A DNA stretch of 64,000 nucleotides, from assembly GCA_015228935.1 (NCBI GenBank), contig JADGCO010000001.1:84103-148102 (forward strand), in the 5' to 3' direction. The first letter of the stretch is position 1. Each line of letters opens with the position of its first letter. Source of the DNA: Magnetococcales bacterium (lineage in GTDB: Bacteria; Pseudomonadota; Magnetococcia; Magnetococcales; DC0425bin3). The position numbers and the translations under genes were made by a program. The notes below the pieces were generated by a model. It was not told where the DNA came from and searched no databases. It saw nothing but the letters and a program-made list of their open reading frames with translations. Below, piece by piece: positions 28,163 to 40,960 of this stretch.

Positions 28163-28330
28163 CGTGGTATGCTCGGCTCTGGACCGGGTTTCCGGGTTTT
28201 TCGATGTATGTGGAGTGTGGGGTATGGTTGTGCGCCGAACAGAATGCCAACAAAGCACTGACAAACCTCGGTGTACACTGGATTGACATGAATTTATTGG
28301 TTCGGGTCGGGTTTTCGGTTCTTCCGCCGT

Positions 28331-29575
28331 TTGTGGAGTATGATTGTGCGCCAACAAACCATGCGCTTGATCGATGAGTGGGTCGGTCAACCCTTGTGCC
28401 TTGTTTTGCGGCTTGTTCTGACAGGACATCATGTTCTTGGCAAATTGTGGCACAGACCCGCAGCAACATTACAAAAAGAGAAGGCTGTCAAAACCATCCT
28501 GTTGCAAAAATATTTTGGCATCGGCAGCATCCTGCACGCCATACCGCTGATTCGTGCCCTGCGTCGGCGTTATCCTGATGCCCGTATCGTCTTTGTCACC
28601 TTCCAGCCCATGGTGGAAACGATCCGACTTTGCAGCATCGCCGATGAAATCATCACCCTGCCGACGCACTCTCCAACAGCCTTTGTTGCAGCACTTTTCG
28701 GTACCCTGTGGCGCTTGCGCAGACTGCCGGTGGACATTTCCATTGACCTTGAATTTTTTGCCCGGTTTACCTTGTTGTTTTCCCTGCTGAGTGGTGCCCC
28801 TGTCCGCATGGGGTTTTTTTTACGGCATATCCGACCCGCCGCCTTGCTTTCTCATCCAATTTATTATAATACTTATCATCACTTGCGGTACATTTACTTT
28901 GCCTTTGGACAGGAGCTGGGGTTGACTCCCAACGCCGAATTTTTCCGGGATGTGCTGCCCACTCCCTCCAGTCTGGTAGAATCCCGATGGCGTGACCGCC
29001 TGGGACTGGATGCCCAACTGCCCATTATCGTCGTCAATCCCAACACCTCCGAACTGGTTTATCAGCGACGTTGGCCAGCCGGTCATTTTCAGAAATTGAT
29101 CGGACGCATGGCCGAACGCTGGCCGAGGTACCAATATGTCCTGGTGGGAACGCGAAGCGAAAAAAAATATGTGGACTCCATCGTCGCTGGTCTGCACGCA
29201 ACGGCAAACAAGGTCATCAATCTGGCAGGGGTCACCACCCTGGCAGAGCTTTTCAGCTTGCTGGGGTCCGCCAGCCTGGTGATCACAAGCGACTCGGGTC
29301 CCATGCATGTTGCTGCCCTCTACCAAACCAACCTTGTTGCATTTTTCGGCCCGGAGACACCGGTCGTGTACGGACCGGTGAATACCAATGCCATTGTGTT
29401 CCACGCAAGCCACCTCTACTGCTCGCCCTGTCTGAATGTGTATGACGCCAAAAAAAGTGTCCATTACCATCCTTGCGAGAATCCCCTTTGCCTTCAGGCC
29501 ATCGATCCTGACATGGTTCTGAACATGATTGAAGAAAGATTTCTTGCATGTCCGACACAGCCTTCCCACCCCTGA
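28331..29575 (+). CDS. glycosyltransferase family 9 (heptosyltransferase-like) (island gene D)
   Basis: ..ILLQKYFGIGSILHAIPLIRALRRRYPDARIVFVT.. and ..VINLAGVTTLAELFSLLGSASLVITSDSGPMHVAAAL.. are typical GT9 N- and C-domain motifs. TTG start at 28331; alternatives at 28340 and 28361. Confidence 0.8.
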   Translation: MWSMIVRQQTMRLIDEWVGQPLCLVLRLVLTGHHVLGKLWHRPAATLQKEKAVKTILLQKYFGIGSILHAIPLIRALRRRYPDARIVFVTFQPMVETIRLCSIADEIITLPTHSPTAFVAALFGTLWRLRRLPVDISIDLEFFARFTLLFSLLSGAPVRMGFFLRHIRPAALLSHPIYYNTYHHLRYIYFAFGQELGLTPNAEFFRDVLPTPSSLVESRWRDRLGLDAQLPIIVVNPNTSELVYQRRWPAGHFQKLIGRMAERWPRYQYVLVGTRSEKKYVDSIVAGLHATANKVINLAGVTTLAELFSLLGSASLVITSDSGPMHVAALYQTNLVAFFGPETPVVYGPVNTNAIVFHASHLYCSPCLNVYDAKKSVHYHPCENPLCLQAIDPDMVLNMIEERFLACPTQPSHP

Positions 29576-30462
29576 TCAGTCCGCTGACGCGCTCCAGACT
29601 GGTGGAACGGGTCGGGGAAAAACTTGTCGCCACGGATGGAGACGAATCTTTCTTCATACGGGACGGCATAGCCGAACTTCTCGTTTCTGCGGAGCTGGTT
29701 GCGCATCAACGTCATACACAGGAAGCCTTCGATACCCTGCCGCTTGCCGGACTTCCCTATTTTCGACCTGCGTTCTTCATCGACGCCGCCCGTTCCCTTC
29801 TTCTCCACGCGGAAACCCCGCCCCGAACCTTCGCCGAACTTGGGGGCGGAGAGGGTCATCTGGCCAGGCATCTGCACGACCTCTGGCCGGGACTGCAAAG
29901 TTGTGTGTGCGATTTGAGTCGTTCCTCCCTGGCCCGTGCCCCGCACCAACTGTGCCGGATCTGGTGTGATGTCACCCGACCGGTATTTGCTCCCGATACC
30001 CTGGACGCGGCTGCCTTCTGGGTATCACTGCATCATCTGTGTGTTCAGGAGCAGACCCAGGCCATGACGGAAATAGCCCGTGCGCTCCGTCCGGGTGGCC
30101 TGCTCCTGGTATGTGAACCCAATGCCGATTTTTACCTGCGCAAGGTGGTCTACAGCACATGCCTGGCGCAGGATGTATATTTCGACCAGGAAGCTGCCGT
30201 GGATTTTTCCCGTTTGGTCGAAGCAGCCACTTCCATCGGTCTGGAACTGGTCAGGTGGCGTTTCAGAAATCCGCCCTACAATCCTGTTTTTGTTCGTAAA
30301 CTGGCGAAATGGCCAGTCTATCTTGCCGCCGTGGAGTTGTTGCATGGGCTGGATCGACTCCTGCTCCGCCCTTTGACCACACGACTGGCCGAGCCTTCCG
30401 CCAGCAACCTTTCCCGGCATCTGACTCTTTACGGCGAAGCCATTTTCAGGAAACGTCCATGA
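29548..30462 (+). CDS. class I SAM-dependent methyltransferase with Cys-less Trm112-like N-terminal segment (island gene E)
   Basis: N-terminus ..LVATDGDESFFIRDGIAELLV (Trm112-like strand motif). MT motif I AELGGGEGHLA, and post-I ..LRPGGLLLVCEP. Confidence 0.7.
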   Translation: MSDTAFPPLISPLTRSRLVERVGEKLVATDGDESFFIRDGIAELLVSAELVAHQRHTQEAFDTLPLAGLPYFRPAFFIDAARSLLLHAETPPRTFAELGGGEGHLARHLHDLWPGLQSCVCDLSRSSLARAPHQLCRIWCDVTRPVFAPDTLDAAAFWVSLHHLCVQEQTQAMTEIARALRPGGLLLVCEPNADFYLRKVVYSTCLAQDVYFDQEAAVDFSRLVEAATSIGLELVRWRFRNPPYNPVFVRKLAKWPVYLAAVELLHGLDRLLLRPLTTRLAEPSASNLSRHLTLYGEAIFRKRP

Positions 30463-31412
30463 TGTGTCCAACGTCGGCGGAATCAACCATCGCCAACTCT
30501 GCGTCTTCTGTCTGGGGTTGTCCTGTTTGTGGTGACGCACGGCATCAGCGAATTGGTTCGGTGCAACACCACCCTTTACATGTCTGTGTCGCATGCCGAT
30601 TGCAGTTTTTGCATCCCCAACCGACGCCGACAGAGCTTGCCGCCATCTATCGGGACTACTATCAGGCGTGGGGAAAACTCGACGAGCCTGCCGTACAGGC
30701 TCAGGTGTCTGCCATGAAGCAACAGACCTTTCATGGCTACCTGGATATATTGGAACACTACGGGACCAAAGGGGGATCGCTCCTGGATATCGGTTGCGCG
30801 ACAGGCGATTTCCTGTTGGCCGCTCGACAAAGGGGATTTGCTGTTCATGGCGTGGAAATCTCGCCGGAGGGAATCCGCCGCAGCCGGATGTTGTTTGGTT
30901 CCGCACACATCCATGCCGGTTCCCTGGATGACACGGCCTTTGCCGACCATCTTTTCGACATCATCATCCTGAGCGATGTTCTGGAACACATTTCCGATCT
31001 GAAGGGATTGCGTCGGCACATTCTGCGCCTGATGCAGCCCCGGGGCATGCTGCTTGTCGTCACGCCCGACGCCGGCAGCCTCAGTTGCCGTCTCATGGGC
31101 ACCCGCTGGCCACATTACAAACCTGAACACCTGTTTTATTTTCAACGCGGGACGATCCGTGCGTGGTTGCAGGACTCCTTCCAGCTCCTGGTCTGTCAGC
31201 GCGCCGTCAAGACCCTGACGCCCATATATTGCGGGCAGGTTCTGAAACAATATGGTCAATTCCCCCTGGCCAGAATGACGGGGCGGTTTTTTTCGTCGCT
31301 GCCCGACTTTTTGGGCAACAGGCATGTTGCGGTCAGCCTTGGCGAAATGCTCGTCGTGGCCAAACGGGCGTCAGCCCCCCTCGGACTCGAACATTCCCAG
31401 CCACAGACATAA
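30459..31412 (+). CDS. class I SAM-dependent methyltransferase with N-terminal zinc-ribbon (island gene F)
   Basis: Track ORF trimmed to MMCPTS.. (ATGA overlap with gene E). CPVCG..17..CVACRLQF, motif I LLDIGCATGDFL, and ..ILSDVLEHI.. Confidence 0.75.
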   Translation: MMCPTSAESTIANSASSVWGCPVCGDARHQRIGSVQHHPLHVCVACRLQFLHPQPTPTELAAIYRDYYQAWGKLDEPAVQAQVSAMKQQTFHGYLDILEHYGTKGGSLLDIGCATGDFLLAARQRGFAVHGVEISPEGIRRSRMLFGSAHIHAGSLDDTAFADHLFDIIILSDVLEHISDLKGLRRHILRLMQPRGMLLVVTPDAGSLSCRLMGTRWPHYKPEHLFYFQRGTIRAWLQDSFQLLVCQRAVKTLTPIYCGQVLKQYGQFPLARMTGRFFSSLPDFLGNRHVAVSLGEMLVVAKRASAPLGLEHSQPQT

Positions 31413-31506: not shown

Positions 31507-33870
31507 TCACAAAATGAACCTGAAGAGTCTCCAGACAGCGTATGGCGGGAGGTAGGTCAGGCGGACCTCATGCCGGCCTGGGGGCAGCGGAACTCCCTGA
31601 AAGGCAAGATCGACCGGAAAGAGATGTGCGGGCTGATTATCGATGGTTGCCTGCCAGTAACTGCTGTAGCTGTTGGTAACGACCAGCATGGCATCTCCTG
31701 TGGATTCGGTCACAAAGGCATAGTGATCAGGTCCGGTTGCCTGAATCGAGACCGAATCCACGACCCCTTCAAGCCGGGATTGTATGCCGGAGGGAGGGGT
31801 GTATGTTCCGGCATCTGCCGCTGTCATGTACGCCGTGGAACGGAGTTGTTCGATTCCGGCCTTGCCCATGGCGGCCATGACATCTTCCTTGGTGGGAAGG
31901 ATTTGCGTGCGTTCCGTCAGGAAAGCCCGGGGCAATACCTGGCTGTTTTCATAAATGTGTACCGGCAATGGACCGGGATAGGATTGCTGCCCCAGACAAG
32001 CAAACAGTCGGTAAAGTGCCGTAAATAAAGTGTCTGTCGTTATGGCAGGATCGCACCAGGTTTGAGCCGGGTTGGTCAGCCGGGGAAAATGTGCCTGGGT
32101 TGGAACAGGATGCAAGCGGAAATCGTCCAGGGGCTGCCGGGAAACGATATATCGAACATTGGCCAGGGAAAGAAGATTCATATCATAAAGTGATCCCACG
32201 TTCAGGGGCAGGGAAGACTCTGCCAGATTATCCCGAAATGTTGGCTTGCGGGATGGAGCATTCTGCCGCATGTTGGCAGGGGTATATAAATAGGCGCGAT
32301 GCCCCCATTTCAAAAAGTAATCCCGGATAAACTCGGAATAGCGTGAATCGTGCATGGCCGGGTCCAGGATGAGTGACCAGAAATCATGATAACGTTTCGG
32401 GTAGACGTTCATGTACCCGTCTGCGGTTTCAAACCCGTAGCTCCCCAGAATGGCCGTATGAAGATTCGATGCCCCATCGCTTACCATGACGGCACGGTAA
32501 CGCTTTTTGATCGCAACGGGCACATCTTTTGCCCACGCCAAAAGTTGCGGGTGCTTATAATAGGCGGCAAAATGGTTTTCTTCGAACACGATGGCAGAGA
32601 TTTCGTTGCGTGTTTTTCTCGCCAGGAGATAGGTCAACAATACCACAAGAATGGCCAGGGCAACCCGACCTGCCAGCCGGGGCAGGGATTGACCCTTGCA
32701 GCTTTCCCAACGTTCCGCAAGATGATGAATGGCCAGCGCACTGGTGATGGCAGCGAAAAAGAATGTGTAAAATACCCAGCGCCACCATCCGAATTTGAAG
32801 AGAATCCAAGGTTTTGCGGTGGTCAAATGGGTGACGATGACAAGCAGCATGGGAAAGAGATATAACCCGGAGAAAGTCAGGATCGAGATGACAAGATAGG
32901 TGCCAATCCTGGTTCTTTTCCAGTTTGCATCGGCCAGCATGATGCCAAGAATGCTGAGCAGCCAGGGAATGACCATTTTGGGAAACACGTACAGAAACAT
33001 GTCCGGATCAAACCGGATCTCCCCCGACATGTCCGCCGAGTTGGCCCGATGCGAGAGGGGGGCGTTCAGCAATTCGGACAGAAGGTGGGGAATTTCGGGC
33101 AAAACCATGCCTGCCAACATGCCCATCGCGACCTGAATGAAGGATCGGTTCCAGCGTTGCGGGTGTACCCAGAAAAACACCCCAAGGAGAGGAGCCGTCG
33201 TGATACTGATGAAAAACGGGGCATTGAGCGCATAAACCACACCACAAACAAAGCCGGTCAGCACGGCAAAGGTGCGTTTCGGCCAGTTGGTCAGGCGTAT
33301 GGCTGTCCAGGCCATCCAGGGAAACAGTTCCAGAGCAAGCCCAAGTTGGGGATAGGGCGGGTCGTTGACCAATGTGCAAATGATTCCCCCCAGCAGGGCA
33401 CTGAAACGCTTGACGGAAAAATCATCCACAAGCAGGCGATACGTGAAATACCCGGACAGAAACAACTGGATAAAATGAAACAATCCGTTGACCAGCCATG
33501 CTGGCATGACAAAAAACAGGTACTGGTCGATGTTGTGAATGTACGACGAGGCGTAATCTGTCCCTGATAATTGCAAGGGAGACCACAGATGGGCAGACAA
33601 TCCCTGGGCGGCAGTGGCTGCATAGTTGGAAAAGAATGAATCTGCATGGTCACCCATCGGTATGTATGCATGCTCACCGAAGGCCCAGCGCGGGAAGGAT
33701 CGCAAAAGCGCCCAGAGAATGAAAAAGAGGAGCGGCCAGAGCGATGAAAAAACAGAAGAAGAGGAAGCAGGTGGGGGAGAAGAACTGTTCGCATCCTGGG
33801 GTGGCGGGGCAGGCCAGGAGGAATTCCGGGAACAACTTTCCTGGGCTTGACACATGCGCGTGTGAGACAT
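31507..33870 (-). CDS. large polytopic membrane protein, YfhO/DUF6044-like (putative GT-C-type glycosyltransferase) (island gene G)
   Basis: The 997-aa track ORF is trimmed to MSHTRMCQ.. (33870), because the upstream 630 nt are antisense to gene H. More than 12 hydrophobic segments. The C-terminal soluble part ends ..LVVTNSYSSYWQATIDNQPAHLFPVDLAFQGVPLPPGRHEVRLTYLPP, which resembles the YfhO-family C-terminus. Confidence 0.65.
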   Translation of the reverse strand: MSHTRMCQAQESCSRNSSWPAPPPQDANSSSPPPASSSSVFSSLWPLLFFILWALLRSFPRWAFGEHAYIPMGDHADSFFSNYAATAAQGLSAHLWSPLQLSGTDYASSYIHNIDQYLFFVMPAWLVNGLFHFIQLFLSGYFTYRLLVDDFSVKRFSALLGGIICTLVNDPPYPQLGLALELFPWMAWTAIRLTNWPKRTFAVLTGFVCGVVYALNAPFFISITTAPLLGVFFWVHPQRWNRSFIQVAMGMLAGMVLPEIPHLLSELLNAPLSHRANSADMSGEIRFDPDMFLYVFPKMVIPWLLSILGIMLADANWKRTRIGTYLVISILTFSGLYLFPMLLVIVTHLTTAKPWILFKFGWWRWVFYTFFFAAITSALAIHHLAERWESCKGQSLPRLAGRVALAILVVLLTYLLARKTRNEISAIVFEENHFAAYYKHPQLLAWAKDVPVAIKKRYRAVMVSDGASNLHTAILGSYGFETADGYMNVYPKRYHDFWSLILDPAMHDSRYSEFIRDYFLKWGHRAYLYTPANMRQNAPSRKPTFRDNLAESSLPLNVGSLYDMNLLSLANVRYIVSRQPLDDFRLHPVPTQAHFPRLTNPAQTWCDPAITTDTLFTALYRLFACLGQQSYPGPLPVHIYENSQVLPRAFLTERTQILPTKEDVMAAMGKAGIEQLRSTAYMTAADAGTYTPPSGIQSRLEGVVDSVSIQATGPDHYAFVTESTGDAMLVVTNSYSSYWQATIDNQPAHLFPVDLAFQGVPLPPGRHEVRLTYLPPYAVWRLFRFIL

Positions 33871-33987: not shown

Positions 33988-35073
33988 ATGGGACTCTTTC
34001 GCCAAAGGGCGCGGCTTTACACCCGGATCGTCATGGCCGACAGGCTCGGTCTGGTACAGCCTGTGGTGACGGCCTTCTTCATTACCACCCGTTGTAATGC
34101 CCACTGCAACTATTGCTACACCGACAAGGGTATTGCCAAACGCGATGAGATGACCACCCGCCAAATCTGCGATACCGTGGACGGGTTGGTCGGAATGGGC
34201 ACACGCATCATCAACCTGATGGGCGGCGAACCCTTGTTGCGGGATGATTTTCCTGAAATTCTGCGACACATTCGCGCCAGGAACATTGTTTGTGATGTCA
34301 ATACAAACTGTTTCCTGATCGAAAAGCACCTGGATCTGTTGCGCACACACGCCACGCAACTGTTCACCAGCCTCGATGGTGACGAACAAGCCCACGATTT
34401 GAATCGCGGTGCAGGCACGTTCAACAAGACGGTGCATGGCATTCGTCTGGCCCGGCAAGCCGGTATCCCGGTACGCATCAATTGCACGGTGACACGACAC
34501 AATGCGGACAAAATCGATTTTTTAATTGATTTTTCAGAACGTTACAACCTGTTTCTCACCTTCACCCCTCTGGTGCGCGCCCATACCGGAACTCTGGCAA
34601 GCACGGCAGCCCTGACCCCCGACGACCAGGAAGCCAAAAATATTTTTCAACGCATCAAGGCTGCCAAGGCTCGCTCGACGCGCATCATGAATTCCGATGC
34701 CGCCCTCGATTATTACATCCATTATCCGGTTCCTTTCGGCACCATTGTGGGACGTGATGAAACCGGCCTCCATCGCAACTACTACACACGGACCTGTCCC
34801 TACGGACGGTTGCAGTTTTTTGTGACCAGCAATGGCAACGTGTACAGTTGCCACAACATGTGGAACGAACCAACCTATCAGCCGGGCAACGTGTTGCGTC
34901 AGGGAGTGCGGGATGCCATCATGCAGGCTCATGCAGGCCTGACCTGTAAATATTGCTGGCTGGCCAATCTGGTGGAGTGGAACGAGTTCACGACCCTCCC
35001 CTGGCTGTTCAAGGGGATCCGTATGACACTCAGGCAGATGTTCGAACGTTCGCAGCCGGGATCCGGCATATGA
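33988..35073 (+). CDS. radical SAM/SPASM-like enzyme (island gene H)
   Basis: Trimmed to MGLFRQRARL.. ITTRCNAHCNYCY, LMGGEPLL, and C-terminal ..TCPYGRLQFFVTSNGNVYSCHN.....CKYCW. Confidence 0.85.
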   Translation: MGLFRQRARLYTRIVMADRLGLVQPVVTAFFITTRCNAHCNYCYTDKGIAKRDEMTTRQICDTVDGLVGMGTRIINLMGGEPLLRDDFPEILRHIRARNIVCDVNTNCFLIEKHLDLLRTHATQLFTSLDGDEQAHDLNRGAGTFNKTVHGIRLARQAGIPVRINCTVTRHNADKIDFLIDFSERYNLFLTFTPLVRAHTGTLASTAALTPDDQEAKNIFQRIKAAKARSTRIMNSDAALDYYIHYPVPFGTIVGRDETGLHRNYYTRTCPYGRLQFFVTSNGNVYSCHNMWNEPTYQPGNVLRQGVRDAIMQAHAGLTCKYCWLANLVEWNEFTTLPWLFKGIRMTLRQMFERSQPGSGI

Positions 35074-35221: not shown

Positions 35222-36343
35222 ATGGTAATCCAGATGAACATGGCGCGCACCATACGGGACCTGATCGTTCTGATACGCATCATCATCCAGGTGTTGCGAG
35301 TCAAGATTACTCGGCGGGCGCGGCCAGTGTCGGTAAATCTCCAGGTGACCAAACACTGCAATCTGGCGTGTTCCTACTGTTTTGCCGACCTGGAATCCCT
35401 GGCCACAGTCAAGGATCCCGACACATCGGAAATGATGGAAACCATTGACGAACTGTATCGCCATGGTTGCCGACACATCATCCTGATGGGAGGAGAACCC
35501 CTGATCCGAAAGGATATCGGTACCATCATTCGCCATATCAAAAACAGGTGGATGCGTTGCGAGATCGTCACCAACGGCTATTATGTCGCGCAACATCTGG
35601 AGGATTTGCAGGCATGTGATTCGGTCTGCGTCAGCCTGGATGGCCTTCGGGAAAGCAACGATGTCGTGCGCGGCAAGGGATGCCACGACACTGTGGTCAA
35701 AGCCATGGATTTTCTCCACGCAAAGGGAATCAAAACCCGGATTCATGCCATCATCACCCGGGAAAATCTGCACAGCGGCAGCATGCGCTACATCGCCGAA
35801 TTGGCAGCCAGATACGGATTTGCTTTCAATTTTTCCATGGCCATGCTGCGGCCTGAACTGCGGGATGATTCCATCCATTTCACCGAAGAGGAGATCCAGG
35901 AGATCATTGCCGAGTATCGGCAGTTGCGCATGGACGGATTCCCGGTCTTCACCTCGGAGAGATGTCTGAAATATGTCGCCAAATGGCCCAAGAAAGGCTC
36001 CTATACAATTTTTGAGGCGGACTCATTGACCCCGGAAGAAAAGCGTTGGGTCATGCCCTGCAACTATGGCCGTTACAATGCCTTCCTCGATGTGGATGGC
36101 AGTGTCTACAAATGTTGCCTGACCTGGAAAAACGGCCTCAAATGGCGCGAACATGGCATGCAGGCCTGCATCGATCATGTGGGCCGGAATCTGCTCCATT
36201 GCGTTTCCTGCCGCAGCATTGGGGACATCGATCGGGCCATGTTGCTGGAATTTGCCAGTCTGGGCAACTTGAGGATGGTGTGGAACTATTTGTTCAAGCG
36301 TTCCGGACGGCAAAAGGCAAAAGCAGTGCGCACATCATCATGA
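35222..36343 (+). CDS. radical SAM/SPASM-like enzyme, paralogue of gene H (island gene I)
   Basis: VTKHCNLACSYCF, LMGGEPLI, and C-terminal ..PCNYGRYNAFLDVDGSVYKCC....CVSCRS. Alternative starts at 35234 and 35240. Confidence 0.85.
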   Translation: MVIQMNMARTIRDLIVLIRIIIQVLRVKITRRARPVSVNLQVTKHCNLACSYCFADLESLATVKDPDTSEMMETIDELYRHGCRHIILMGGEPLIRKDIGTIIRHIKNRWMRCEIVTNGYYVAQHLEDLQACDSVCVSLDGLRESNDVVRGKGCHDTVVKAMDFLHAKGIKTRIHAIITRENLHSGSMRYIAELAARYGFAFNFSMAMLRPELRDDSIHFTEEEIQEIIAEYRQLRMDGFPVFTSERCLKYVAKWPKKGSYTIFEADSLTPEEKRWVMPCNYGRYNAFLDVDGSVYKCCLTWKNGLKWREHGMQACIDHVGRNLLHCVSCRSIGDIDRAMLLEFASLGNLRMVWNYLFKRSGRQKAKAVRTSS

Positions 36344-36362: not shown

Positions 36363-38333
36363 ATGAATGGACGGAATGGCATGCAGGATCAGGTGGTGGT
36401 ACTCACCGGGGCATCCCGGGGCGTGGGCCGCTGTCTGGCGAAACGCCTGCTGGCCCGGGGTGCCGTGGTCATTGGAGTGGCCCGGGACGGTGCTGCCCTT
36501 GACAGCCTGGTCTGTGCGCATGCAGCTTCCCGGCGGGATGGAACGACACATGGGAGTGGCCGTTTTATCCCAGTGGCCTGTGACGTGGCGGATGCTGAGG
36601 CGGTGCGCCGCCAGGTCGGCGCGGCAGTGGCAGCACTGGGTCGGGTGGACCTGCTCATCAACAATGCCGGCGTGGGCTTGACAGCCAGCGCCCTCGCCAC
36701 CCGCCGCGAGTGGAGCGAACGCGCCATGGCCGTCAATTTTTACGGCGCGGTGAATCTGACCGAAACCATCGCGCCCATGATGATCCAGGCACGTGCGGGT
36801 GTCATCGTCAACGTTGCTTCGGTCGTGGCCCGGCTGGGCATGCCGACGGTTGCCCATTATGCGGCGGCCAAGGCCGCACTCACGGCCTGGTCACAGGCTC
36901 TGGAATCTGAACTGGCCCCGGCAGGCATTCGCGTGTTGACGGTGCATCCGGGTAATACGGATACCGGTTTTCACACCAGCCAGTTGCAACCGGGAGGCTC
37001 GCCAGCATGGGTGACCCGTGGCAACAGGCTCGATCCGGAAATGGTGGCCGACACGATTCTCGGATTGACTGCCGGCCCATCTGCGGAGAAGGTGATCGGA
37101 CGCCCGGCACAGATGTTGCTTTTGTTGCGCTTTTTGGCACCACGGTGGCTGCGCAACCTGTTCATCTCCTTGTTCCGCCTGGATGTCTGGTATGACTCGG
37201 ACGCACCATTGGATCCGGGAACCAGCTCCCCATTCTCGCCAGAGGTCACGTTCCCCGGTGCGCAACCGCCGCCGGTCATGCCGGCGCTGACCGGGGTTAC
37301 CCTGGCACATGCAGATCGTTTCTGCGGTTACCATCGGCAAAAAGGTCCCCTGACCGGGCACCAGGTACTGACCCCTGGACTCGATCCTCTGCTGTTTTAC
37401 ACGCTTTATCCTTACCTTCTGGCCACCGTATACACCCGCACATCCCCTTCCCGGCAGCGTTTCCGGCATCCCTGGCTGCCAAATGCCGGCTGGATACCCA
37501 TGGTCCACAGGCCGGTTGGTGCCGTGGCTGCGGTGAAAAATGTCATCAAAACCCTGTTGGTGCCCGTGCGCCCTCTTGGTCGTAGCTGGCACGGTGTCGA
37601 ACTGCGCGTGGCTGGACATCCATATGCTTTCGACCTGGGCGAAGGCGGGACGGTGTGTCCGGCAGCCTTTCGTGCTTTTTTTCCCGTGCAACTGCGCAGC
37701 CAACTGGAAGCCAAAGACGGTGGGACCTGGAGCGGGTGTTGTCCCGATCACCTGAAAAATCTGACATTTGCAGCCGGGAATAATACCCTTGCGTCCGTAC
37801 CCCTGCCCGGTGCCGATCCTGTATGCCATTGGGGAGCGCAGGCCGTACTCAAAGCAGGAAACCCCTGCCACAGGCAACCAGTACCGGAGAAGGATGGCAG
37901 AGGTTCAACCATGACCCTGGAGGAATTGGCCACGCAACTCGGTGTGCCCTGTCCGACCCTCCTGCAAACCGCTCTGGGCTATTATCTGACGCTGAGCATG
38001 GGTGGAGAGTTGGCCTTCTACAGCACAACCTTTGATGCTGCCATGTTTCAATGTCCCAGCGTGCGTTCCCGGGTGGCTGCAGAAATCGTTCGCCACCGGG
38101 AAACGGGCATGGTGACACTCGTCGTTTTGGCCATCAATGGCACCGCCTGCGCTCGGGGATTTGTTGCCGGTGACCGGTGGCAGTTGCCTTTGGATCTGGA
38201 ACGGACCCGGGGGTGTCTGCACGCTTTCAATGCCCTCTATCTTGCCGCCGGAGTGGCGGATTTATTGCCGGAACCGATCACTGTGGCCTGTCCCCGGGAG
38301 GGGTGCCAGGCAACCTGGCAGGTGGCAGCATGA
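36363..38333 (+). CDS. short-chain dehydrogenase/reductase fused to a ~390-aa Cys-containing domain of unknown function (island gene J)
   Basis: SDR: VVVLTGASRGVGR (TGxxxGxG), NNAG and YAAAKAAL (YxxxK). The C-terminal half has no family I can name with confidence. It may hold two TIGR04076-like modules (..CPAAFRAFFP..GCCPDHLKNLTF.. and ..CLHAFNALYL..VACPREGCQATWQV). Confidence 0.8.
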   Translation: MNGRNGMQDQVVVLTGASRGVGRCLAKRLLARGAVVIGVARDGAALDSLVCAHAASRRDGTTHGSGRFIPVACDVADAEAVRRQVGAAVAALGRVDLLINNAGVGLTASALATRREWSERAMAVNFYGAVNLTETIAPMMIQARAGVIVNVASVVARLGMPTVAHYAAAKAALTAWSQALESELAPAGIRVLTVHPGNTDTGFHTSQLQPGGSPAWVTRGNRLDPEMVADTILGLTAGPSAEKVIGRPAQMLLLLRFLAPRWLRNLFISLFRLDVWYDSDAPLDPGTSSPFSPEVTFPGAQPPPVMPALTGVTLAHADRFCGYHRQKGPLTGHQVLTPGLDPLLFYTLYPYLLATVYTRTSPSRQRFRHPWLPNAGWIPMVHRPVGAVAAVKNVIKTLLVPVRPLGRSWHGVELRVAGHPYAFDLGEGGTVCPAAFRAFFPVQLRSQLEAKDGGTWSGCCPDHLKNLTFAAGNNTLASVPLPGADPVCHWGAQAVLKAGNPCHRQPVPEKDGRGSTMTLEELATQLGVPCPTLLQTALGYYLTLSMGGELAFYSTTFDAAMFQCPSVRSRVAAEIVRHRETGMVTLVVLAINGTACARGFVAGDRWQLPLDLERTRGCLHAFNALYLAAGVADLLPEPITVACPREGCQATWQVAA

Positions 38334-39916
38334 TTTCCCGATCCCGGCAGGGTTATGCCCTGTTCTCCGTTGCCGAGACACATCGGATTGTGGAATTTGC
38401 CCATGCCTGCATGCAGGTCGGCTGGACTATCGTGGCCAGTGAACCGCCGTTGTCAACCTTGCGCGCAGCCGGTATCCCTGCGGTGGATGTGGCGGATTTT
38501 GTCGGTGTGGATGCTTCCCGCTACCCGTTCCCACCCACCTTGCACCCGAAAATCGAGTGGGCATTGACCGACGCCTCGGCTGACATACGGCTGGAACTGG
38601 TCTACGACATTCCCTATGGCCCGGCCCTGGGCAACGATGTGGGCGGCCACACATTGTTGGGACTGGCTGCCAAAGGAAATCGGCTGCCGGTAGCCACGGT
38701 GACGGATATGGAGCAGGTGGCACGGGCGCTGGGGACAACCGGTACCGTGCCCGCCGACCTCCGCCAAGCCCTGATTGATGCCGCCAACCTGCGTGTGATG
38801 CGCCATTATGCCTCCCTGGTGCCGAACGGGCCTGATCATCAGGTCATTGTGGCACATACACCCCGAACCCTGCTGAATGGCGAAAATCCTTACCAGGTAC
38901 CGGCGGTGTTGCTGGACGACGGCAGCGGCGACCCGCTCGGTCTGGTCGCCTGTCGGCAGGTGCTGGGCAACCCTCCCTGCCTGACAAATCTGGCGGACGC
39001 GGATTCTCTCATCTCCACTCTGGTACGGTTGAGCGCCGGCTTTCGGTGCCTGCAGGATGGAGTCCCCTTTCTGGCCATTGCTGCCAAGCATGGTAATCCC
39101 TGTGGGATCGGTTGGCACCGGAAGGATCCCCTGACAGCCATCCGACGCGCCTTGTGGGCCAACCCGGGTGCTATCTGGGGAGGTGAAGTGGCTGTCAATT
39201 TTCCCCTGGACACCGCCTGTGCCGAAGCCCTGTTTGCCGATCCTCGGCGAGCGAAATCATTTGGCTCGGAACGTTGGATGCTGGATGTTGTCCTGGCCCC
39301 GGATGCCGACGCAGGAGCCTGCAACCAGTTGGGGCAACGCCGCCTGACCAAACTGTTTCTGAATGACCGTCTGGCAGACCCGGACAAGGTGCCACATCCC
39401 TCCTGGCAGGGGCGACTGGTGCGGGGGGGATTATTGCGGCAACCCCCAGCGGACTATGTTCTTGACCTCGCCACGGCGGAAGTGGATGGCTCCTGGCCCG
39501 ATACTCCGACCCAGGAGGCAATGGTGATCGCCTGGGCAGCCGCCTTCTCCTCCAATCAGGGCGGCAATGAGGTGGCCCTGGCGTGTCCCGGTGCCCTGCT
39601 GGCCGTTGGCGGAGGCCCCGCAACAGTTGAGGCGGCAGAATTGGCCGTCCTGCGGGCGCGGCGAGCCGTTGCCAATCTGAACATCGCGGAAAACACCGCC
39701 GACATCCACGCCCTGGATGCCACGGGCATGGTCTTCGCAGCAGATGCCTTCTTTCCCTTTACCGATGGCCCGGAGATTTTGACCCGGGCCGGTTGCCGGC
39801 ATGGGGTGGTTCCGAGTGGTGGCATGCGCTTCGATGTCGTTCGCACCTTTCTGCGTGACCAGAGTGTCGGCATGGTGTATCTGGACGAGCGTTACCGGGG
39901 ATTCTGCCGGCACTGA
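38330..39916 (+). CDS. PurH-like protein (MGS-like/IMPCH + AICARFT architecture) with diverged substrate motifs (island gene K)
   Basis: Trimmed to MISRSRQGY.. (ATGA overlap with gene J). Collinear with PurH: ALFSVAETHRIVEFA.., ..TLHPKIE.., ..AAKHGNPCGIG.., ..ADAFFPFTDGPE.., ..ERYRGFCRH. Confidence 0.75.
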   Translation: MISRSRQGYALFSVAETHRIVEFAHACMQVGWTIVASEPPLSTLRAAGIPAVDVADFVGVDASRYPFPPTLHPKIEWALTDASADIRLELVYDIPYGPALGNDVGGHTLLGLAAKGNRLPVATVTDMEQVARALGTTGTVPADLRQALIDAANLRVMRHYASLVPNGPDHQVIVAHTPRTLLNGENPYQVPAVLLDDGSGDPLGLVACRQVLGNPPCLTNLADADSLISTLVRLSAGFRCLQDGVPFLAIAAKHGNPCGIGWHRKDPLTAIRRALWANPGAIWGGEVAVNFPLDTACAEALFADPRRAKSFGSERWMLDVVLAPDADAGACNQLGQRRLTKLFLNDRLADPDKVPHPSWQGRLVRGGLLRQPPADYVLDLATAEVDGSWPDTPTQEAMVIAWAAAFSSNQGGNEVALACPGALLAVGGGPATVEAAELAVLRARRAVANLNIAENTADIHALDATGMVFAADAFFPFTDGPEILTRAGCRHGVVPSGGMRFDVVRTFLRDQSVGMVYLDERYRGFCRH

Positions 39917-39934: not shown

Positions 39935-40960
39935 ATGGCAGCATTCAATACTTTGCATAATCGCTTCAAAATCATGCGTAACTATTACACCGCCACAGAT
40001 CGCCCCGCCTACCCCCAGGAGGTGGTGATCGAGCTGACCAACCATTGCAACCTGGCTTGCATCATGTGTCCGCACCAGACCATGCAACGGCCCAAAGGAC
40101 GAATGTCGGCAGGGTTGTTCCAGAAAATAATCGACGAGATTGCCGGTCACACCGACCTTGTCTATTTGTATGGAACCGGCGAAACGCTGCTGCACAAACA
40201 GTTTCCGGAATTGACCCACTATGCCCATGCCCGGGGAATAGCCACCTGCATATCCACCAACGGCATGATCATGAACGAAACCATGGCCCTTAACCTGTTG
40301 ACCTGCGGTCTTGATTTTCTGACGGTAGCCTTGGACGGGGGGATCAGGGAGACCTACGAACGGATTCGGGTCAAGGGCGACTTTGCCTTGCTGGTGCAGA
40401 ACATTCACACCCTGCTGCGGGTCAAAAAAGAAACCGGATCCACCACGCGCATCACCCTGCAAATGATCTGCATGCCGGAAAATCTGCACGAGATTGCCTT
40501 GTTCAAAGCGTTGTTCACGAAGGAGGAACATGCCCTGCTGCATCAGTTCCGTTTCAAGCCGTTACATAAAACTTATTTACTCGAACGACAGGATATCCGG
40601 CATACCCGGCCTTGTTTCTGGCTGTGGAACATGATGTCCATCTACTGGGATGGAACCGTACCCCTTTGTTGCACCGATGCCGATGGTGCCGTCCGGCTGG
40701 GCAGAGTAACGGAACAGACCATACACGACATATGGCATGCCGAACCTTTGCGGGCCATACGCCGTGCCCACCAACTGATCAACTACGATACCATGCCACT
40801 TTGCCGAAGCTGCAACATCCCCGAGCAGGGATATTTTAACAACCTGACTATTCCCGGCTCGCTGCTGGTGGGATCAGCCTGGTTGCGCAAACTGGTACCT
40901 CTGTACGAAAGGTTGATCATGCTGCCCTTTCAGCGGATGAAGGGTGTCCCTTCCGATTGA
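39935..40960 (+). CDS. radical SAM/SPASM enzyme (island gene L)
   Basis: LTNHCNLACIMCP, and C-terminal ..RPCFWLWNMMSIYWDGTVPLCCTD..LGRV..IHDIW....PLCRSCN. Confidence 0.85.
   Translation: MAAFNTLHNRFKIMRNYYTATDRPAYPQEVVIELTNHCNLACIMCPHQTMQRPKGRMSAGLFQKIIDEIAGHTDLVYLYGTGETLLHKQFPELTHYAHARGIATCISTNGMIMNETMALNLLTCGLDFLTVALDGGIRETYERIRVKGDFALLVQNIHTLLRVKKETGSTTRITLQMICMPENLHEIALFKALFTKEEHALLHQFRFKPLHKTYLLERQDIRHTRPCFWLWNMMSIYWDGTVPLCCTDADGAVRLGRVTEQTIHDIWHAEPLRAIRRAHQLINYDTMPLCRSCNIPEQGYFNNLTIPGSLLVGSAWLRKLVPLYERLIMLPFQRMKGVPSD

What the first reader, a model, noticed from the sequence alone, without database searches (positions are those of the whole stretch)
38330..39916. Full-length PurH paralogue with degenerate cyclohydrolase motifs embedded in the radical-SAM island
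The protein is collinear with bifunctional PurH (IMP cyclohydrolase + AICAR transformylase) from end to end.

Several motifs that I recall as substrate-binding in canonical PurH are replaced:
- SVSDK becomes SVAET.
- STGGT becomes ASEPP.
- RVKTLHPKVHGGIL becomes PPTLHPKIEWALT (the Lys is lost).
- GAGQMSRV becomes GGGPATVE.

The transformylase Lys-His in KH.NPCG (AAKHGNPCGIG) and the ADAFFPF..G and C-terminal ..FRH-like motifs are retained.

The gene's ATG overlaps the stop of the SDR-fusion gene, and it is followed 18 nt later by a radical-SAM gene.

Inference: this is not the housekeeping purH. It is more likely a neofunctionalised folate-dependent formyl/acyl transferase acting on a non-AICAR amine made by the island. 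Formylation in glycan pathways normally uses Fmt-fold enzymes, so this would be an unusual use of the fold.
Basis: partly seen in the sequence, partly recalled or inferred. Interest (0 to 1): 0.65.

Follow-up and report, generated by a model that had tools for sequence, protein, structure and literature searches.

The report
Retooled PurH paralogue in sugar-tailoring island
This gene is an intact, full-length relative of the purine enzyme PurH, but it belongs to a separate, uncharacterised family that keeps the formyl-transfer machinery, has lost the residues that hold the purine precursor, and sits in radical-SAM-rich sugar-modification gene clusters, so it probably does a new job with an old fold.

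Summary
Window 38330-39916 (+) encodes an intact 528-aa protein that is collinear with bifunctional PurH in sequence and in predicted fold.

It is not a decaying copy. It belongs to a sharply defined PurH-like clade found patchily across more than 10 phyla. All members share the same replacement motifs, and the N-domain is as conserved as the C-domain (49% vs 51% pairwise identity).

- **Kept:** the transformylase Lys-His dyad, the DAFFPF.D pterin-contact motif, and Asp340, Asn432 and Arg589 equivalents.
- **Lost:** AICAR contacts Arg208, Tyr209 and Arg452; cyclohydrolase Arg64 and Lys66; and the SGGT and SVSDK loops.

It scores far below NCBI's PurH cut-offs (130 vs 402 bits).

In about two thirds of loci the gene directly follows a Cys-rich TIGR04076-like protein, which here is fused to the SDR. 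These loci lie in radical-SAM-rich islands that also carry dehydrogenase, NDP-sugar, methyltransferase and glycosyltransferase genes. The rSAM/SPASM + TIGR04076 pair also occurs without the PurH-like gene, so that gene is an optional tailoring module.

Best reading: a folate-dependent one-carbon (formyl) transferase acting on a non-AICAR, sugar- or nucleotide-linked acceptor. The "amine" acceptor is not supported, because aminotransferases are not enriched nearby. Whether the genome has a canonical purH could not be checked.

The parts
38330..39916 (+). PurH-like protein (528 aa), member of a distinct PurH-like clade. The N-terminal MGS/IMPCH-like domain is about residues 1-165 (38330-38824). 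The AICARFT-like domain is about residues 166-528 (38825-39913). Lys253-His254 lie at 39086-39091. A window-specific 14-aa loop insertion lies at about residues 447-460.
   Evidence: Translation. Pfam and NCBIfam. PDB profile alignment. AF2 model and Foldseek. Family alignment and motif census.
36363..38333 (+). Fusion protein (656 aa). It has a classical SDR ketoreductase domain (about residues 1-280) followed by two Cys-rich TIGR04076-like modules (residues about 290-656, nt 37230-38330). Its stop codon overlaps the PurH-like start codon.
   Evidence: Pfam adh_short E 3e-46. The C-terminal part hits TIGR04076 weakly: E 9.5e-06, 26 bits against a cut-off of 33. Local HMM built from stand-alone partners, E 4.5e-13. 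There are 7 invariant Cys in a 12-sequence alignment. No PDB fold match was found.
35222..36343 (+). Radical-SAM enzyme ('rSAM2', 373 aa). It is the best-conserved rSAM partner: 63-65% identity in the two syntenic islands and 32-34% in many other loci.
   Evidence: Pfam Radical_SAM and Fer4_12. tblastn across loci. The nearest PDB hits are viperin, SkfB, BlsE and MoaA, over the core only.
33988..35073 (+). Radical-SAM/SPASM enzyme ('rSAM1'). The likely start is the ATG at 33988, preceded by GGAGA; the mechanical ORF begins at 33943.
   Evidence: Pfam Radical_SAM and SPASM. Start-codon survey. PDB neighbours are SkfB, BlsE and PqqE.
39935..40960 (+). Radical-SAM/SPASM enzyme ('rSAM3', 341 aa), 18 nt downstream of the PurH-like gene.
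   Evidence: Pfam Radical_SAM and SPASM. The nearest PDB hits are the sugar-modifying rSAMs BtrN, BlsE and DesII, weakly. The same position is occupied in L044 and L087.
31507..33870 (-). Large membrane protein of the DUF6044/YfhO type (GT-C-like glycosyltransferase), transcribed divergently from the rSAM1 operon. The likely start is the ATG at 33870 or 33855, not the mechanical GTG at 34500.
   Evidence: Pfam DUF6044 E 6e-21 and YfhO E 5e-08. Start-codon survey.
24392..31412 (+). Upstream half of the island, in order:
- rSAM/SPASM (24392-25468)
- B12-binding rSAM (about 25347-26990)
- rSAM/SPASM (27041-28162)
- GT9 heptosyltransferase-like (28331-29575)
- two class-I methyltransferases (29548-30462 and 30309-31412)
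   Evidence: Pfam. Near-complete synteny with L044 (SAR324 MAG) and L003 at 37-60% identity.

Best explanation
The gene encodes a neofunctionalised member of a discrete PurH-like clade, not the purine-pathway enzyme.

**Shown**
- The two-domain PurH fold is intact.
- The transformylase half keeps the catalytic Lys-His pair, the pterin-contacting DAFFPF.D segment, an aromatic residue at the pterin-stacking position, and four of the AICAR-contact positions.
- The residues that contact AICAR in canonical PurH (Arg208, Tyr209, Arg452) are replaced by clade-invariant residues: L/x-N in L.NGENPYQ, and Thr in GGGPST.
- The cyclohydrolase-like half has lost Arg64, Lys66 and both nucleotide loops, yet stays as conserved as the rest of the protein.

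**Inferred**
- The enzyme still takes a one-carbon (formyl) unit from 10-formyl-tetrahydrofolate and puts it on a different acceptor. The most likely acceptor is a nucleotide-linked or sugar-like intermediate.
- That intermediate would be produced by the co-transcribed radical-SAM enzymes and the ketoreductase, as one optional tailoring step in making an unusual envelope glycan. The glycan would then be transferred by the island's GT9 and GT-C enzymes.
- The Cys-rich TIGR04076-like modules encoded just upstream are primarily partners of the radical-SAM/SPASM enzymes. They are probably metal or Fe-S proteins, rather than obligate partners of the PurH-like protein.
- The retooled N-domain probably binds a new ligand or serves dimerisation or regulation. 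Some clade members lack it altogether.
For: **Fold and collinearity:**

**Below the PurH equivalog cut-offs:**

**Crisp clade signature:** 147 sequences carry it, against 85 other PurH variants. About 40 full-length 50%-identity clusters fall in the clade.

**Residue mapping:**, using residue lists from PMC3261824, PMC9525906, PMC3239186 and PMC10186366.
- Kept: Lys253/His254, Asp319, Asn413, Phe474/Phe477, Asp479, Arg523, Phe525, and Trp283 at the Phe315 position.
- Replaced: Arg208 to Leu182, Tyr209 to Asn183, Arg452 to Thr432, Arg64 to Phe67, Lys66 to Pro69, and SGGT to SEPP.

**Equal constraint on both domains:**

**Cassette**
- A TIGR04076-like gene lies within 6 kb in 34 of 49 loci, usually abutting the start codon.
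- rSAM genes make up 44 of 144 neighbours when the partner is present and 3 of 100 when it is absent (Fisher p 1e-8).
- A dehydrogenase is present, but its type varies: SDR, extended SDR or Fe-ADH.
- NDP-sugar and GT genes occur in both sets of loci.
- The rSAM/SPASM + TIGR04076 pair occurs with or without the PurH-like gene inserted in otherwise similar islands: L090 has it, while L088 (Terasakiella), L089 (Methanospirillum), L091 and L092 do not.
- N-truncated, AICARFT-only members exist: L042, L043, L047 and P0161-P0164.

**Patchy distribution:** the clade occurs in Proteobacteria, Nitrospinota, Omnitrophota, Planctomycetota, Elusimicrobiota, Patescibacteria and DPANN archaea.
Against: - No activity, ligand or product is known for any clade member, and no paper mentions the clade.
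- Aminotransferases are not enriched near the gene, so the usual acceptor for formyl transfer, an amine, is not evident.
- About a third of loci lack the rSAM/TIGR04076 cassette. Some sit in unrelated contexts: an HMGL-like enzyme with a KDPG aldolase, and an MtnA-like isomerase with a CN-hydrolase and a Bmp nucleoside ABC transporter. The clade may therefore not have a single substrate.
- Retention of a Lys-His pair and an aromatic-rich motif does not prove folate use.
- Two of the five folate contacts taken from human ATIC (Asn489, Lys483) lie in a eukaryote-specific insertion and cannot be mapped.
- The window member departs from clade consensus at 9 positions that are otherwise at least 90% conserved, for example H410Q and S431A.
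Confidence: 0.5

Rival explanations
1. It is simply the organism's housekeeping PurH, fast-evolving but still making FAICAR and IMP.
For: It has full-length collinearity with PurH and the PurH fold. The Lys-His dyad and three of four IMPCH catalytic residues are kept. JGI pipelines name clade members PurH. I could not check whether the rest of the genome has another purH.
Against: - It scores 130 and 93 bits against curated cut-offs of 402 and 528, and NCBI calls clade members 'hypothetical protein'.
- It has lost Lys66, Arg64, both nucleotide loops, and Arg208, Tyr209 and Arg452.
- It is only 24.6% identical to E. coli PurH.
- It is translationally coupled to SDR/TIGR04076 and rSAM genes, with no pur genes nearby in any locus.
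- The same clade occurs in MAGs labelled Zoogloea, Geobacter, Rhodocyclaceae and 'Enterobacteriaceae', which I would expect (inference, not checked in those genomes) to carry a canonical purH as well.
- No ZTP, THF or purine riboswitch was found in the window or in 12 loci.
Confidence: 0.04
2. The PurH fold has been repurposed for chemistry that does not use folate. It could be a nucleotide- or NDP-sugar-binding hydrolase, cyclase or dehydratase that uses Lys-His as general acid and base. Alternatively it could be a non-catalytic scaffold that holds the rSAM product or docks the TIGR04076-like metalloprotein.
For: - The deaminase-like fold generally binds nucleotides or bases (PMC3239186).
- There is tight translational coupling to the TIGR04076-like gene.
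- No amine source is evident.
- One member sits beside a nucleoside ABC transporter and an amidohydrolase.
Against: The segments that contact the pterin in ATIC (DAFFPF.D with invariant Asp479, and an aromatic residue at the Phe315 position) are among the most conserved parts of the clade. A non-catalytic scaffold would not be expected to keep an invariant Lys-His-Gly-Asn-x-Cys-Gly motif. The TIGR04076 and rSAM pair functions without the PurH-like gene in other islands.
Confidence: 0.25
3. The island matures a peptide or protein (RiPP-like), and the PurH-like enzyme modifies that peptide or the Cys-rich TIGR04076-like protein itself.
For: SPASM-type rSAMs are typical peptide maturases. The best NCBIfam hits of rSAM1 and rSAM2 include sactipeptide, mycofactocin and PQQ maturases. 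The Cys-rich partner is always adjacent.
Against: - All those hits are far below their cut-offs.
- No plausible precursor ORF was found in the gaps of the island.
- The nearest solved relatives of rSAM3 are the sugar-modifying BtrN, BlsE and DesII.
- Related islands are full of NDP-sugar enzymes (RmlC-like, TylF, C-methyltransferase domains, YerE-like TPP enzymes, an HldE-like enzyme) and glycosyltransferases.
Confidence: 0.1
4. It is a decaying pseudo-enzyme, a relic duplicate of purH with no function.
For: It has lost canonical motifs in both active sites. The window copy has a 14-aa low-confidence loop insertion and 9 departures from clade consensus.
Against: - The ORF is intact.
- 69 columns are invariant across 30 sequences drawn from many phyla.
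- The replaced motifs are themselves invariant.
- The N-domain is as conserved as the C-domain.
- Operon position is conserved, with overlapping stop and start codons.
Confidence: 0.02

Closest known systems
Canonical bifunctional PurH / ATIC (AICAR transformylase + IMP cyclohydrolase; TIGR00355, PDB 1g8m, 1p4r, 3zzm, 4ehi, 1zcz)
   Same: It has the same two-domain architecture and fold (TM 0.75-0.78). It keeps the Lys-His catalytic dyad, the DAFFPF.D motif, the Asp340, Asn432 and Arg589 equivalents, and the IMPCH residues Tyr104, Asp125 and Lys137.
   Different: - Identity is about 22-25%, and it scores far below the equivalog cut-offs.
- Arg64, Lys66, the SGGT and SVSDK loops, and Arg208, Tyr209 and Arg452 are replaced by clade-invariant residues.
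- It has a 3-residue insertion before the conserved Asn (xHGGNE).
- It is never next to pur genes, and it sits in rSAM and glycan islands.
ForH (PDB 6nko), an IMP-cyclohydrolase-like PurH paralogue
   Same: It is a PurH-derived protein. The N-domain of the clade matches it (E 8e-07 by profile; Foldseek E 2e-09).
   Different: ForH is a stand-alone chain of about 200 aa and matches only the N-terminal domain of the clade. Its role in formycin (C-nucleoside) biosynthesis is recalled from memory and was not checked here. The window protein is full length, keeps the transformylase half, and lies in a glycan-type island.
Fmt-fold sugar N-formyltransferases (ArnA N-domain, WlaRD, FdtF, VioF, WbkC)
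   Same: This is what the protein may work like: 10-formyl-THF-dependent formylation of a nucleotide-linked sugar within an O-antigen- or LPS-type cluster. Some related loci even resemble the Arn logic, with Ugd, an epimerase or decarboxylase-type SDR, a GT2 and a PMT_2 GT-C.
   Different: The fold is entirely different (PurH deaminase-like versus Fmt). The known enzymes act on amines made by DegT-type aminotransferases, and those are not enriched here. The comparison rests on established knowledge of those enzymes, not on a test here.
Divergent PurH variants of Patescibacteria (loci L049-L083; P0169-P0278)
   Same: They are about 30% identical both to the clade and to E. coli PurH. They share AKHGN.CG, RGF..H and a Leu-Asp at the Asp340 position.
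   Different: They keep S.xxK, SGGT, xYGEN, SNT and GGQQ[DS]R, that is, the nucleotide loops and the Tyr209 and Arg452 equivalents, so they are a different group. Lys66 is Val in the eight that I translated.

Membership tests
Canonical bifunctional PurH (NCBIfam TIGR00355 / NF002049) | Whole-protein score at or above the curated equivalog cut-off | tested here: not met
   NF002049 scores 129.7 bits against a cut-off of 402. TIGR00355 scores 92.6 bits against a cut-off of 528.
Canonical bifunctional PurH (NCBIfam TIGR00355 / NF002049) | Two-domain MGS-like IMPCH + AICARFT architecture and fold | tested here: met
   The family profile aligns end to end with 4ehi, 3zzm and 1zcz. Foldseek gives TM 0.75-0.78 and E 1e-35 to Mtb PurH.
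Canonical bifunctional PurH (NCBIfam TIGR00355 / NF002049) | IMP cyclohydrolase residues Lys66, Tyr104, Asp125, Lys137 (PMC3261824), plus Arg64, Thr67 and the nucleotide loops (PMC9525906) | tested here: not met
   Lys66 is Pro69 and Arg64 is Phe67. SGGT is SEPP (clade S.ET) and SVSDK is SVAET. Tyr96, Asp103, Lys115 and Thr70 are kept.
Canonical bifunctional PurH (NCBIfam TIGR00355 / NF002049) | AICAR transformylase catalytic Lys-His dyad | tested here: met
   Lys253-His254 in AAKHGNPCG are invariant in the clade.
Canonical bifunctional PurH (NCBIfam TIGR00355 / NF002049) | AICAR-contact residues Arg208, Tyr209, Asp340, Asn432, Arg452, Phe542, Arg589 (PMC3261824) | tested here: not met
   Arg208 is Leu182, Tyr209 is Asn183 and Arg452 is Thr432. 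Asp319, Asn413, Phe474 and Arg523 are kept.
Canonical bifunctional PurH (NCBIfam TIGR00355 / NF002049) | Pterin contacts of the folate site (Asp546, Phe315; also Asn547, Asn489, Lys483; PMC10186366) | tested here: inconclusive
   The Asp546 equivalent, Asp479, is invariant. Phe315 is replaced by the invariant Trp283. The Asn547 position is Ala or Gly, as it also is in E. coli. Asn489 and Lys483 lie in a eukaryote-specific insertion and cannot be mapped.
Canonical bifunctional PurH (NCBIfam TIGR00355 / NF002049) | AICARFT and IMPCH activity, and being the only or essential purH of the genome | not testable with these tools
   Only 64 kb of the genome is visible and it holds no other purH. The genome is not among the GTDB representatives returned, and no sequencing runs were found.
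PurH-like clade defined here (FPPT / L.NGENPYQ / PCFTN / IWGGE / xHGGNE / GGGPST / RGFCRH) | All signature motifs present | tested here: met
   The window protein has FPPT, LLNGENPYQ, PCLTN, IWGGE, NQGGNE, GGGPATVE and RGFCRH. It is 44-50% identical to 29 members.
PurH-like clade defined here (FPPT / L.NGENPYQ / PCFTN / IWGGE / xHGGNE / GGGPST / RGFCRH) | Adjacent upstream TIGR04076-like gene and radical-SAM neighbours (majority context) | tested here: met
   The SDR-TIGR04076x2 fusion ends in an ATGA overlap with the PurH-like start codon. rSAM genes lie on both sides. The same gene order is seen in L044 and L087.
Fmt-fold sugar N-formyltransferases (ArnA/WlaRD type) | Formyl_trans_N (Fmt) fold | tested here: not met
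   Pfam finds only AICARFT_IMPCHas. All structure matches are PurH.
TIGR04076 family (partner domain, 37230-38330) | NCBIfam score at or above the cut-off of 33 bits | tested here: not met
   The window C-terminal region scores 26.1 bits (E 9.5e-06). Stand-alone partners from other loci score 35-60 bits and pass. The window domain matches an HMM of those partners at E 4.5e-13.

The most novel reading that the evidence does not exclude
The clade would be the first non-purine use of the complete PurH fold. In this reading it is a folate-dependent enzyme that installs a one-carbon unit on a radical-SAM-generated, nucleotide-linked sugar intermediate that is not an aminotransferase-derived amine. 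One option is a formyl or hydroxymethyl branch that is then reduced by the adjacent SDR or Fe-ADH. Another is formylation followed by ring closure in the retooled N-domain. Either would yield a previously unknown sugar modification in envelope glycans of many uncultured phyla.
Probability: 0.15. Interest if true: 0.8.

Novelty: new variant of a known kind. Interest (0 to 1): 0.6.

Why it matters
**New enzymology.** PurH/ATIC is a textbook, drug-targeted enzyme known essentially only from purine synthesis. Here is a coherent, widely distributed clade that keeps the formyl-transfer core but has a rebuilt acceptor pocket and a new genomic home. That is a clean entry point to new folate-dependent chemistry and to the unknown products of radical-SAM-rich glycan islands in Omnitrophota, Nitrospinota, SAR324, Planctomycetota, CPR and DPANN.

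**Annotation risk.** JGI-type pipelines label these proteins 'PurH'. That can falsely complete the purine pathway in metabolic reconstructions of reduced-genome lineages.

**A second lead.** The work also flags the TIGR04076-like Cys-rich proteins as regular partners of SPASM radical-SAM enzymes. These proteins have no solved structure and no known function.

Tried and rejected
- **Second purH in the genome.** The window has none. The genome is not among the returned GTDB representative loci. No public sequencing run holds the stretch. The question stays open.
- **Pur-operon context.** No purD lies near any of 83 loci.
- **Riboswitches (ZTP, THF, purine, cobalamin, SAM).** None was found in the window or in 12 family loci; only 3 tRNAs were found in the window.
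- **Fold of the TIGR04076-like modules.** The AF2 model has pLDDT 76, and Foldseek finds nothing in the PDB (best E 0.25).
- **Pfam on the TIGR04076-like modules.** No hit.
- **Literature.** Nothing was found on TIGR04076 function, on PurH paralogues with radical-SAM enzymes, or on 'PurH-like' proteins of this kind.
- **RiPP precursor search.** The island's intergenic gaps hold nothing convincing. One gap ORF is infA.
- **Promoter and terminator scan of the island.** Counts equal those from shuffled sequence, so it is uninformative.
- **Aminotransferase as source of an amine acceptor.** None is in the window island, and none is among the enriched neighbour families. The class I/II aminotransferase at 5378-6379 belongs to the cob cluster.
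- **PurH-like and TIGR04076-like proteins as obligate partners.** Rejected, because the rSAM/SPASM + TIGR04076 pair occurs without the PurH-like gene in 4 of 5 independently sampled islands, and the PurH-like gene occurs without the pair in at least 6 loci with full flanks.

Full report
**1. The observation**

Window 38330-39916 (+) is an uninterrupted ORF of 528 codons.
- Its ATG shares bases with the TGA of the preceding 656-aa ORF (ATGA at 38330-38333).
- It is followed, after 18 nt that contain GAGGA, by the ATG of a radical-SAM/SPASM gene at 39935.
- The upstream in-frame GTG at 38177 is not the start. Relatives begin about 9 residues before the conserved ALFS, which matches the ATG.

The protein resembles PurH throughout.
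- Pfam finds AICARFT_IMPCHas (E 4e-22).
- phmmer against the PDB finds only PurH/ATIC chains.
- A profile of the family aligns from profile position 3 to 496 of 507 with C. jejuni PurH 4ehi (E 4e-51). It also aligns with the M. tuberculosis, T. maritima and Methanosarcina enzymes.
- An AlphaFold2 model built on 30 relatives has mean pLDDT 88. It superposes on M. tuberculosis PurH with TM 0.75-0.78 (Foldseek E 1e-35).

**2. It is a member of a discrete clade, not a drifting copy**

The nearest non-self proteins are only 47-49% identical, but there are hundreds of them. All are 505-515 aa, nearly all come from metagenomes, and the few that NCBI names are called 'hypothetical protein', while JGI calls them 'PurH' where it names them.

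An exhaustive HMMER scan of 1.84 billion cluster representatives gives about 40 full-length 50%-identity clusters above about 225 bits. Below that come other kinds of PurH variant.

I aligned 232 sequences of at least 440 aa and read off 15 motif positions. The split is clean.
- 147 sequences carry FPPT, [AG][ST]xE[TS], L.NGENPYQ, PCFTN, AKHGN, IWGGE, LDV, xHGGNE, GGGPST, DAFFPF.D and RGFCRH.
- The other 85 keep the canonical S.xxK, SGGT, xYGEN, SNT and GGQQ[DS]R.

In a 30-sequence alignment, 69 columns are invariant. Mean pairwise identity is 49% in the N-terminal domain (residues 8-165) and 51% in the C-terminal domain. The cyclohydrolase-like half is therefore not degenerate. It has been rebuilt and is held under the same constraint as the rest of the protein.

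The window copy is a slightly atypical member. It departs from clade consensus at 9 positions that are at least 90% conserved (for example H410Q and S431A), and it has a 14-residue low-confidence loop insertion. It is clearly intact.

**3. Residue by residue**

Published residue lists are as follows.
- IMP cyclohydrolase: Lys66, Tyr104, Asp125, Lys137 (PMC3261824), plus Arg64, Thr67, Ile126, Gly127 and Ser12 (PMC9525906).
- AICAR contacts: Arg208, Tyr209, Lys267, His268, Asp340, Asn432, Arg452, Phe542, Arg589 (PMC3261824; Asn432, Arg452 and Phe542 are my corrected reading of what it prints as 'Asn 342, Arg 352, Phe 342'). The same Asn and Arg are noted in PMC3239186.
- Pterin contacts in human ATIC 1P4R: Asp546, Asn547, Asn489, Phe315 and Lys483 (PMC10186366).

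I mapped these through E. coli PurH (fetched) and the alignments.

| Canonical residue or motif | Window / clade equivalent | Status |
|---|---|---|
| Lys267-His268 | Lys253-His254 | kept |
| Asp340 | Asp319 | kept |
| Asn432 | Asn413 (after a 3-residue insertion) | kept |
| Phe542 and neighbouring Phe | Phe474, Phe477 | kept |
| Asp546 | Asp479 (invariant) | kept |
| Arg589 and neighbouring Phe | Arg523, Phe525 | kept |
| Phe315 | Trp283 (invariant) | aromatic kept |
| Tyr104, Asp125, Lys137, Thr67 | Tyr96, Asp103, Lys115, Thr70 | kept |
| Arg208 | Leu182 | replaced |
| Tyr209 | Asn183 | replaced |
| Arg452 | Thr432 | replaced |
| Arg64 | Phe67 | replaced |
| Lys66 | Pro69 | replaced |
| SGGT loop | SEPP (clade S.ET) | replaced |
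| SVSDK | SVAET | replaced |

In short, the catalytic and pterin-side elements of the transformylase site survive. Three AICAR contacts and the nucleotide-holding loops of the cyclohydrolase site are exchanged for new, clade-invariant residues. Against NCBI's curated PurH equivalogs the protein scores 129.7 and 92.6 bits, where 402 and 528 are required.

**4. The neighbourhood in the window**

Between tamA/tamB (17767-23978) and infA-parE-tolC-ampD (41131 onward) lies an island, 24392-40960.
- Plus strand: rSAM/SPASM, B12-binding rSAM, rSAM/SPASM, a GT9 heptosyltransferase-like enzyme and two methyltransferases.
- Minus strand: a DUF6044/YfhO GT-C-like membrane protein.
- Then a tightly packed plus-strand operon: rSAM1/SPASM (33988), rSAM2 (35222), an SDR fused to a 370-residue Cys-rich region (36363), the PurH-like gene (38330) and rSAM3/SPASM (39935).

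There is no aminotransferase, no nucleotidyltransferase, no pur gene and no riboswitch in the island. The solved structures nearest to the three rSAMs match only the rSAM core.
- rSAM2: viperin, SkfB, BlsE and MoaA.
- rSAM1: SkfB, BlsE and PqqE.
- rSAM3: BtrN, BlsE and DesII, all of which are sugar-modifying enzymes.

**5. The neighbourhood elsewhere**

A scan of GTDB representative genomes returned 45 clade loci. They come from Elusimicrobiota, Patescibacteria, Nitrospinota, Omnitrophota, Altiarchaeota and other DPANN, Syntrophia, Planctomycetota, Lentisphaerota, SAR324, Magnetococcales, Rhodocyclaceae, Thalassospiraceae and Geobacter. This patchy spread is typical of a mobile cassette. L044 (SAR324) and L003 share nearly the whole window island at 37-65% identity.

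Clustering of neighbour ORFs showed small Cys-rich proteins of about 170 and 180-210 aa just upstream of the PurH-like gene.
- They hit NCBIfam TIGR04076 (35-60 bits, cut-off 33).
- The C-terminal region of the window's SDR fusion is two such modules. It scores 26 bits to TIGR04076 and E 4.5e-13 to an HMM of the stand-alone partners, with seven invariant Cys.
- This fold has no match in the PDB.
- A TIGR04076-like gene lies within 6 kb in 34 of 49 loci. It usually ends within a few bases of the PurH-like start.

A Pfam census of neighbours within 4.5 kb gave the following.

| Neighbour family | Partner present (21 loci, 144 proteins) | Partner absent (15 loci, 100 proteins) |
|---|---|---|
| Radical_SAM | 44 | 3 |
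| SDR | 13 | not counted |
| Methyltransferases | 11 | 3 |
| B12-binding | 10 | 3 |
| SPASM | 10 | not among the 25 families shown |
| NDP-sugar epimerases | 7 | 5 (epimerase/dehydratase type) |
| GT2 | 7 | 4 |
| PMT_2 | 4 | not among the 25 families shown |
| Fe-ADH | 3 | not among the 25 families shown |

The rSAM difference gives Fisher p 1e-8. The dehydrogenase type varies between SDR, extended SDR and Fe-ADH, which suggests that a redox step is needed but that its enzyme is interchangeable. Aminotransferases are not among the enriched families.

**6. Who is partner of whom**

I searched from the TIGR04076-like side and looked at five contexts chosen without regard to PurH. All five show a 366-372-aa rSAM/SPASM gene next to the TIGR04076-like gene, with overlapping stop and start codons in three of them (L088, L089, L090). 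All lie in islands rich in NDP-sugar tailoring genes: NeuB, YerE-like TPP enzymes, dTDP-sugar isomerase, TylF, C-methyltransferase domains, an HldE-like kinase/adenylyltransferase, and GT1 or GT2.
- With the PurH-like gene: L090 only. There the order is Fe-ADH, rSAM/SPASM, TIGR04076, PurH-like.
- Without it: Terasakiella sp. SH-1 (rSAM/SPASM, TIGR04076, Fe-ADH), Methanospirillum sp., L091 and L092.

Conversely, at least six loci with full flanks have the PurH-like gene but neither the partner nor rSAMs. Two examples:
- One sits beside an HMGL-like enzyme and a KDPG aldolase.
- One sits beside an MtnA-like isomerase, a CN-hydrolase and a Bmp nucleoside ABC transporter.

Some members lack the N-domain altogether (L042, L043, L047, P0161-P0164).

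So the rSAM/SPASM + TIGR04076 pair is the core of the cassette, the PurH-like enzyme is an optional tailoring module, and its transformylase-like half is the indispensable part.

**7. Most likely mechanism**

Shown:
- an intact PurH fold;
- a conserved Lys-His dyad;
- a conserved pterin-side motif;
- a rebuilt acceptor side;
- a rebuilt but constrained N-domain;
- operonic coupling with rSAM, ketoreductase and TIGR04076-like genes in glycan-type islands.

Inferred:
- The enzyme still draws a formyl (one-carbon) unit from 10-formyl-THF and transfers it to a non-AICAR acceptor.
- The acceptor is probably nucleotide-linked. This fits the general ligand preference of the deaminase-like fold (PMC3239186) and the NDP-sugar context.
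- The reaction would be one optional decoration step on an unusual sugar that the island's GT9 and GT-C enzymes place on the envelope.

I put this at about 0.5. That it is a non-housekeeping paralogue of a distinct clade I put above 0.9.

The nature of the acceptor is open. A weakly nucleophilic nitrogen, a carbon nucleophile followed by reduction, or formylation plus ring closure in the N-domain all remain possible.

Rivals:

| Rival | Confidence |
|---|---|
| Non-folate chemistry or a scaffold role | 0.25 |
| Peptide or protein modification | 0.1 |
| Housekeeping PurH | 0.04 |
| Pseudo-enzyme | 0.02 |

**8. Comparison with what is known**

- **Canonical PurH/ATIC.** It shares the fold and the dyad with canonical PurH/ATIC but fails the family's curated score, the IMPCH residue set and the AICAR-contact set. 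It should not be filed as PurH.
- **ForH.** ForH (6nko) is a PurH-derived paralogue that I recall as part of formycin biosynthesis (not checked here), but it corresponds to the N-domain alone.
- **Sugar N-formyltransferases.** It may work like the Fmt-fold sugar N-formyltransferases (ArnA, WlaRD, FdtF, VioF; established knowledge). It has a different fold and lacks their aminotransferase partners.
- **Patescibacterial PurH variants.** The variants in L049-L083 are a separate group that keeps the nucleotide loops and Arg452.
- **Literature.** I found no paper on this clade or on TIGR04076 function.

**9. Limits**

- No biochemical data exist.
- I could not inspect model coordinates, dock ligands, or see the rest of the genome.
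- Two human folate contacts cannot be mapped.
- Gene calls in the foreign loci are simple longest-ORF calls.
- The five TIGR04076 contexts are a small sample.

**10. Verdict**

The finding is real and is a credible lead to new chemistry on a classical fold. Its interest is moderate to high (0.6). It is best classed as a new variant of a known kind.

Noticed in passing
window 37230-38330 (C-terminal part of ORF 36363-38333); also L001:8912-10004, L011:9454-9984, L088:10001-10549: Cys-rich TIGR04076-like modules (7 invariant Cys) have no Pfam model and no PDB fold match. They are consistently encoded next to a 366-372-aa rSAM/SPASM enzyme, often with overlapping stop and start codons, including in the cultured Terasakiella sp. 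SH-1 and Methanospirillum sp. J.3.6.1-F.2.7.3. They are probably a dedicated metal or Fe-S partner of these rSAMs. Their function is unknown.
   Followed up: partly
L049-L083 (e.g. L049:10001-11662, L066:10001-11587): A separate group of 520-600-aa PurH variants occurs in Patescibacteria (Nomurabacteria, Saccharibacteria, Paceibacterota). They are about 30% identical both to E. coli PurH and to the clade. They keep SGGT, xYGEN, SNT and GGQQDR, but Lys66 is Val (HRVVTL) and the C-terminus is RGF..H. No purD lies nearby. It is unclear whether they are functional PurH enzymes.
   Followed up: partly
P0014, P0025, P0027, P0033 and others: JGI/IMG annotation names clade members 'phosphoribosylaminoimidazolecarboxamide formyltransferase / IMP cyclohydrolase', whereas the members that NCBI names are called 'hypothetical protein'. 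This is a likely source of false-positive purH calls in MAG metabolic reconstructions.
   Followed up: no
L042:10001-10999, L043:10001-11002, L047:10001-11008; P0161-P0164: N-terminally truncated clade members of about 340-370 aa consist of the AICARFT-like half only. In L042 one sits directly after a double TIGR04076-like ORF. The N-domain is therefore dispensable in some lineages.
   Followed up: partly
locus of P0104 (JGI sample 3300072015, no DNA held) and L085:6140-9239: Some clade members lie outside any rSAM island. One sits between an MtnA/IF-2B-like isomerase plus a CN-hydrolase and a Bmp-type nucleoside ABC transporter plus an amidohydrolase. Another follows an HMGL-like enzyme and a KDPG/KHG aldolase. 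This hints at nucleoside- or keto-acid-linked roles for part of the clade.
   Followed up: no
window 31507-34500 (-) versus 33943-35073 (+): The mechanical 997-aa minus-strand ORF overlaps the rSAM1 ORF by about 550 nt. The DUF6044 match begins at residue 251. The real starts are probably the ATG at 33870 or 33855 (minus strand) and the ATG at 33988 (plus strand), which leaves a divergent intergenic region of about 117 nt.
   Followed up: yes
window 41131-41409 (+): A short ORF between the island and parE encodes translation initiation factor IF-1 (infA-like sequence ...[53 protein letters not shown]). I recognised it by eye and did not run it through a family search.
   Followed up: no
window 9955-12000: A low-GC segment (41% against about 55% for the window) holds an Acyl_transf_3 membrane acyltransferase (9955-11130) directly after the cobQ-like gene. 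It ends at tRNA-Leu(CAG) at 11336-11422. It is possibly a small acquired insertion.
   Followed up: no
window 47410-48571: An ORF with an IS1595-type transposase zinc-ribbon domain only (47410-48024) lies next to tRNA-Asn(GTT) at 48496-48571. It is likely an IS remnant between ampD and the rpoA-rpsD-secY ribosomal protein operon (49956 onward, minus strand).
   Followed up: no
window 19755-23978 (+): The TamB-like protein (1407 aa) contains a short tandem peptide repeat (KETTGSGKETTGSGKETAGSSKETTDSGKET...) in its N-terminal third.
   Followed up: no
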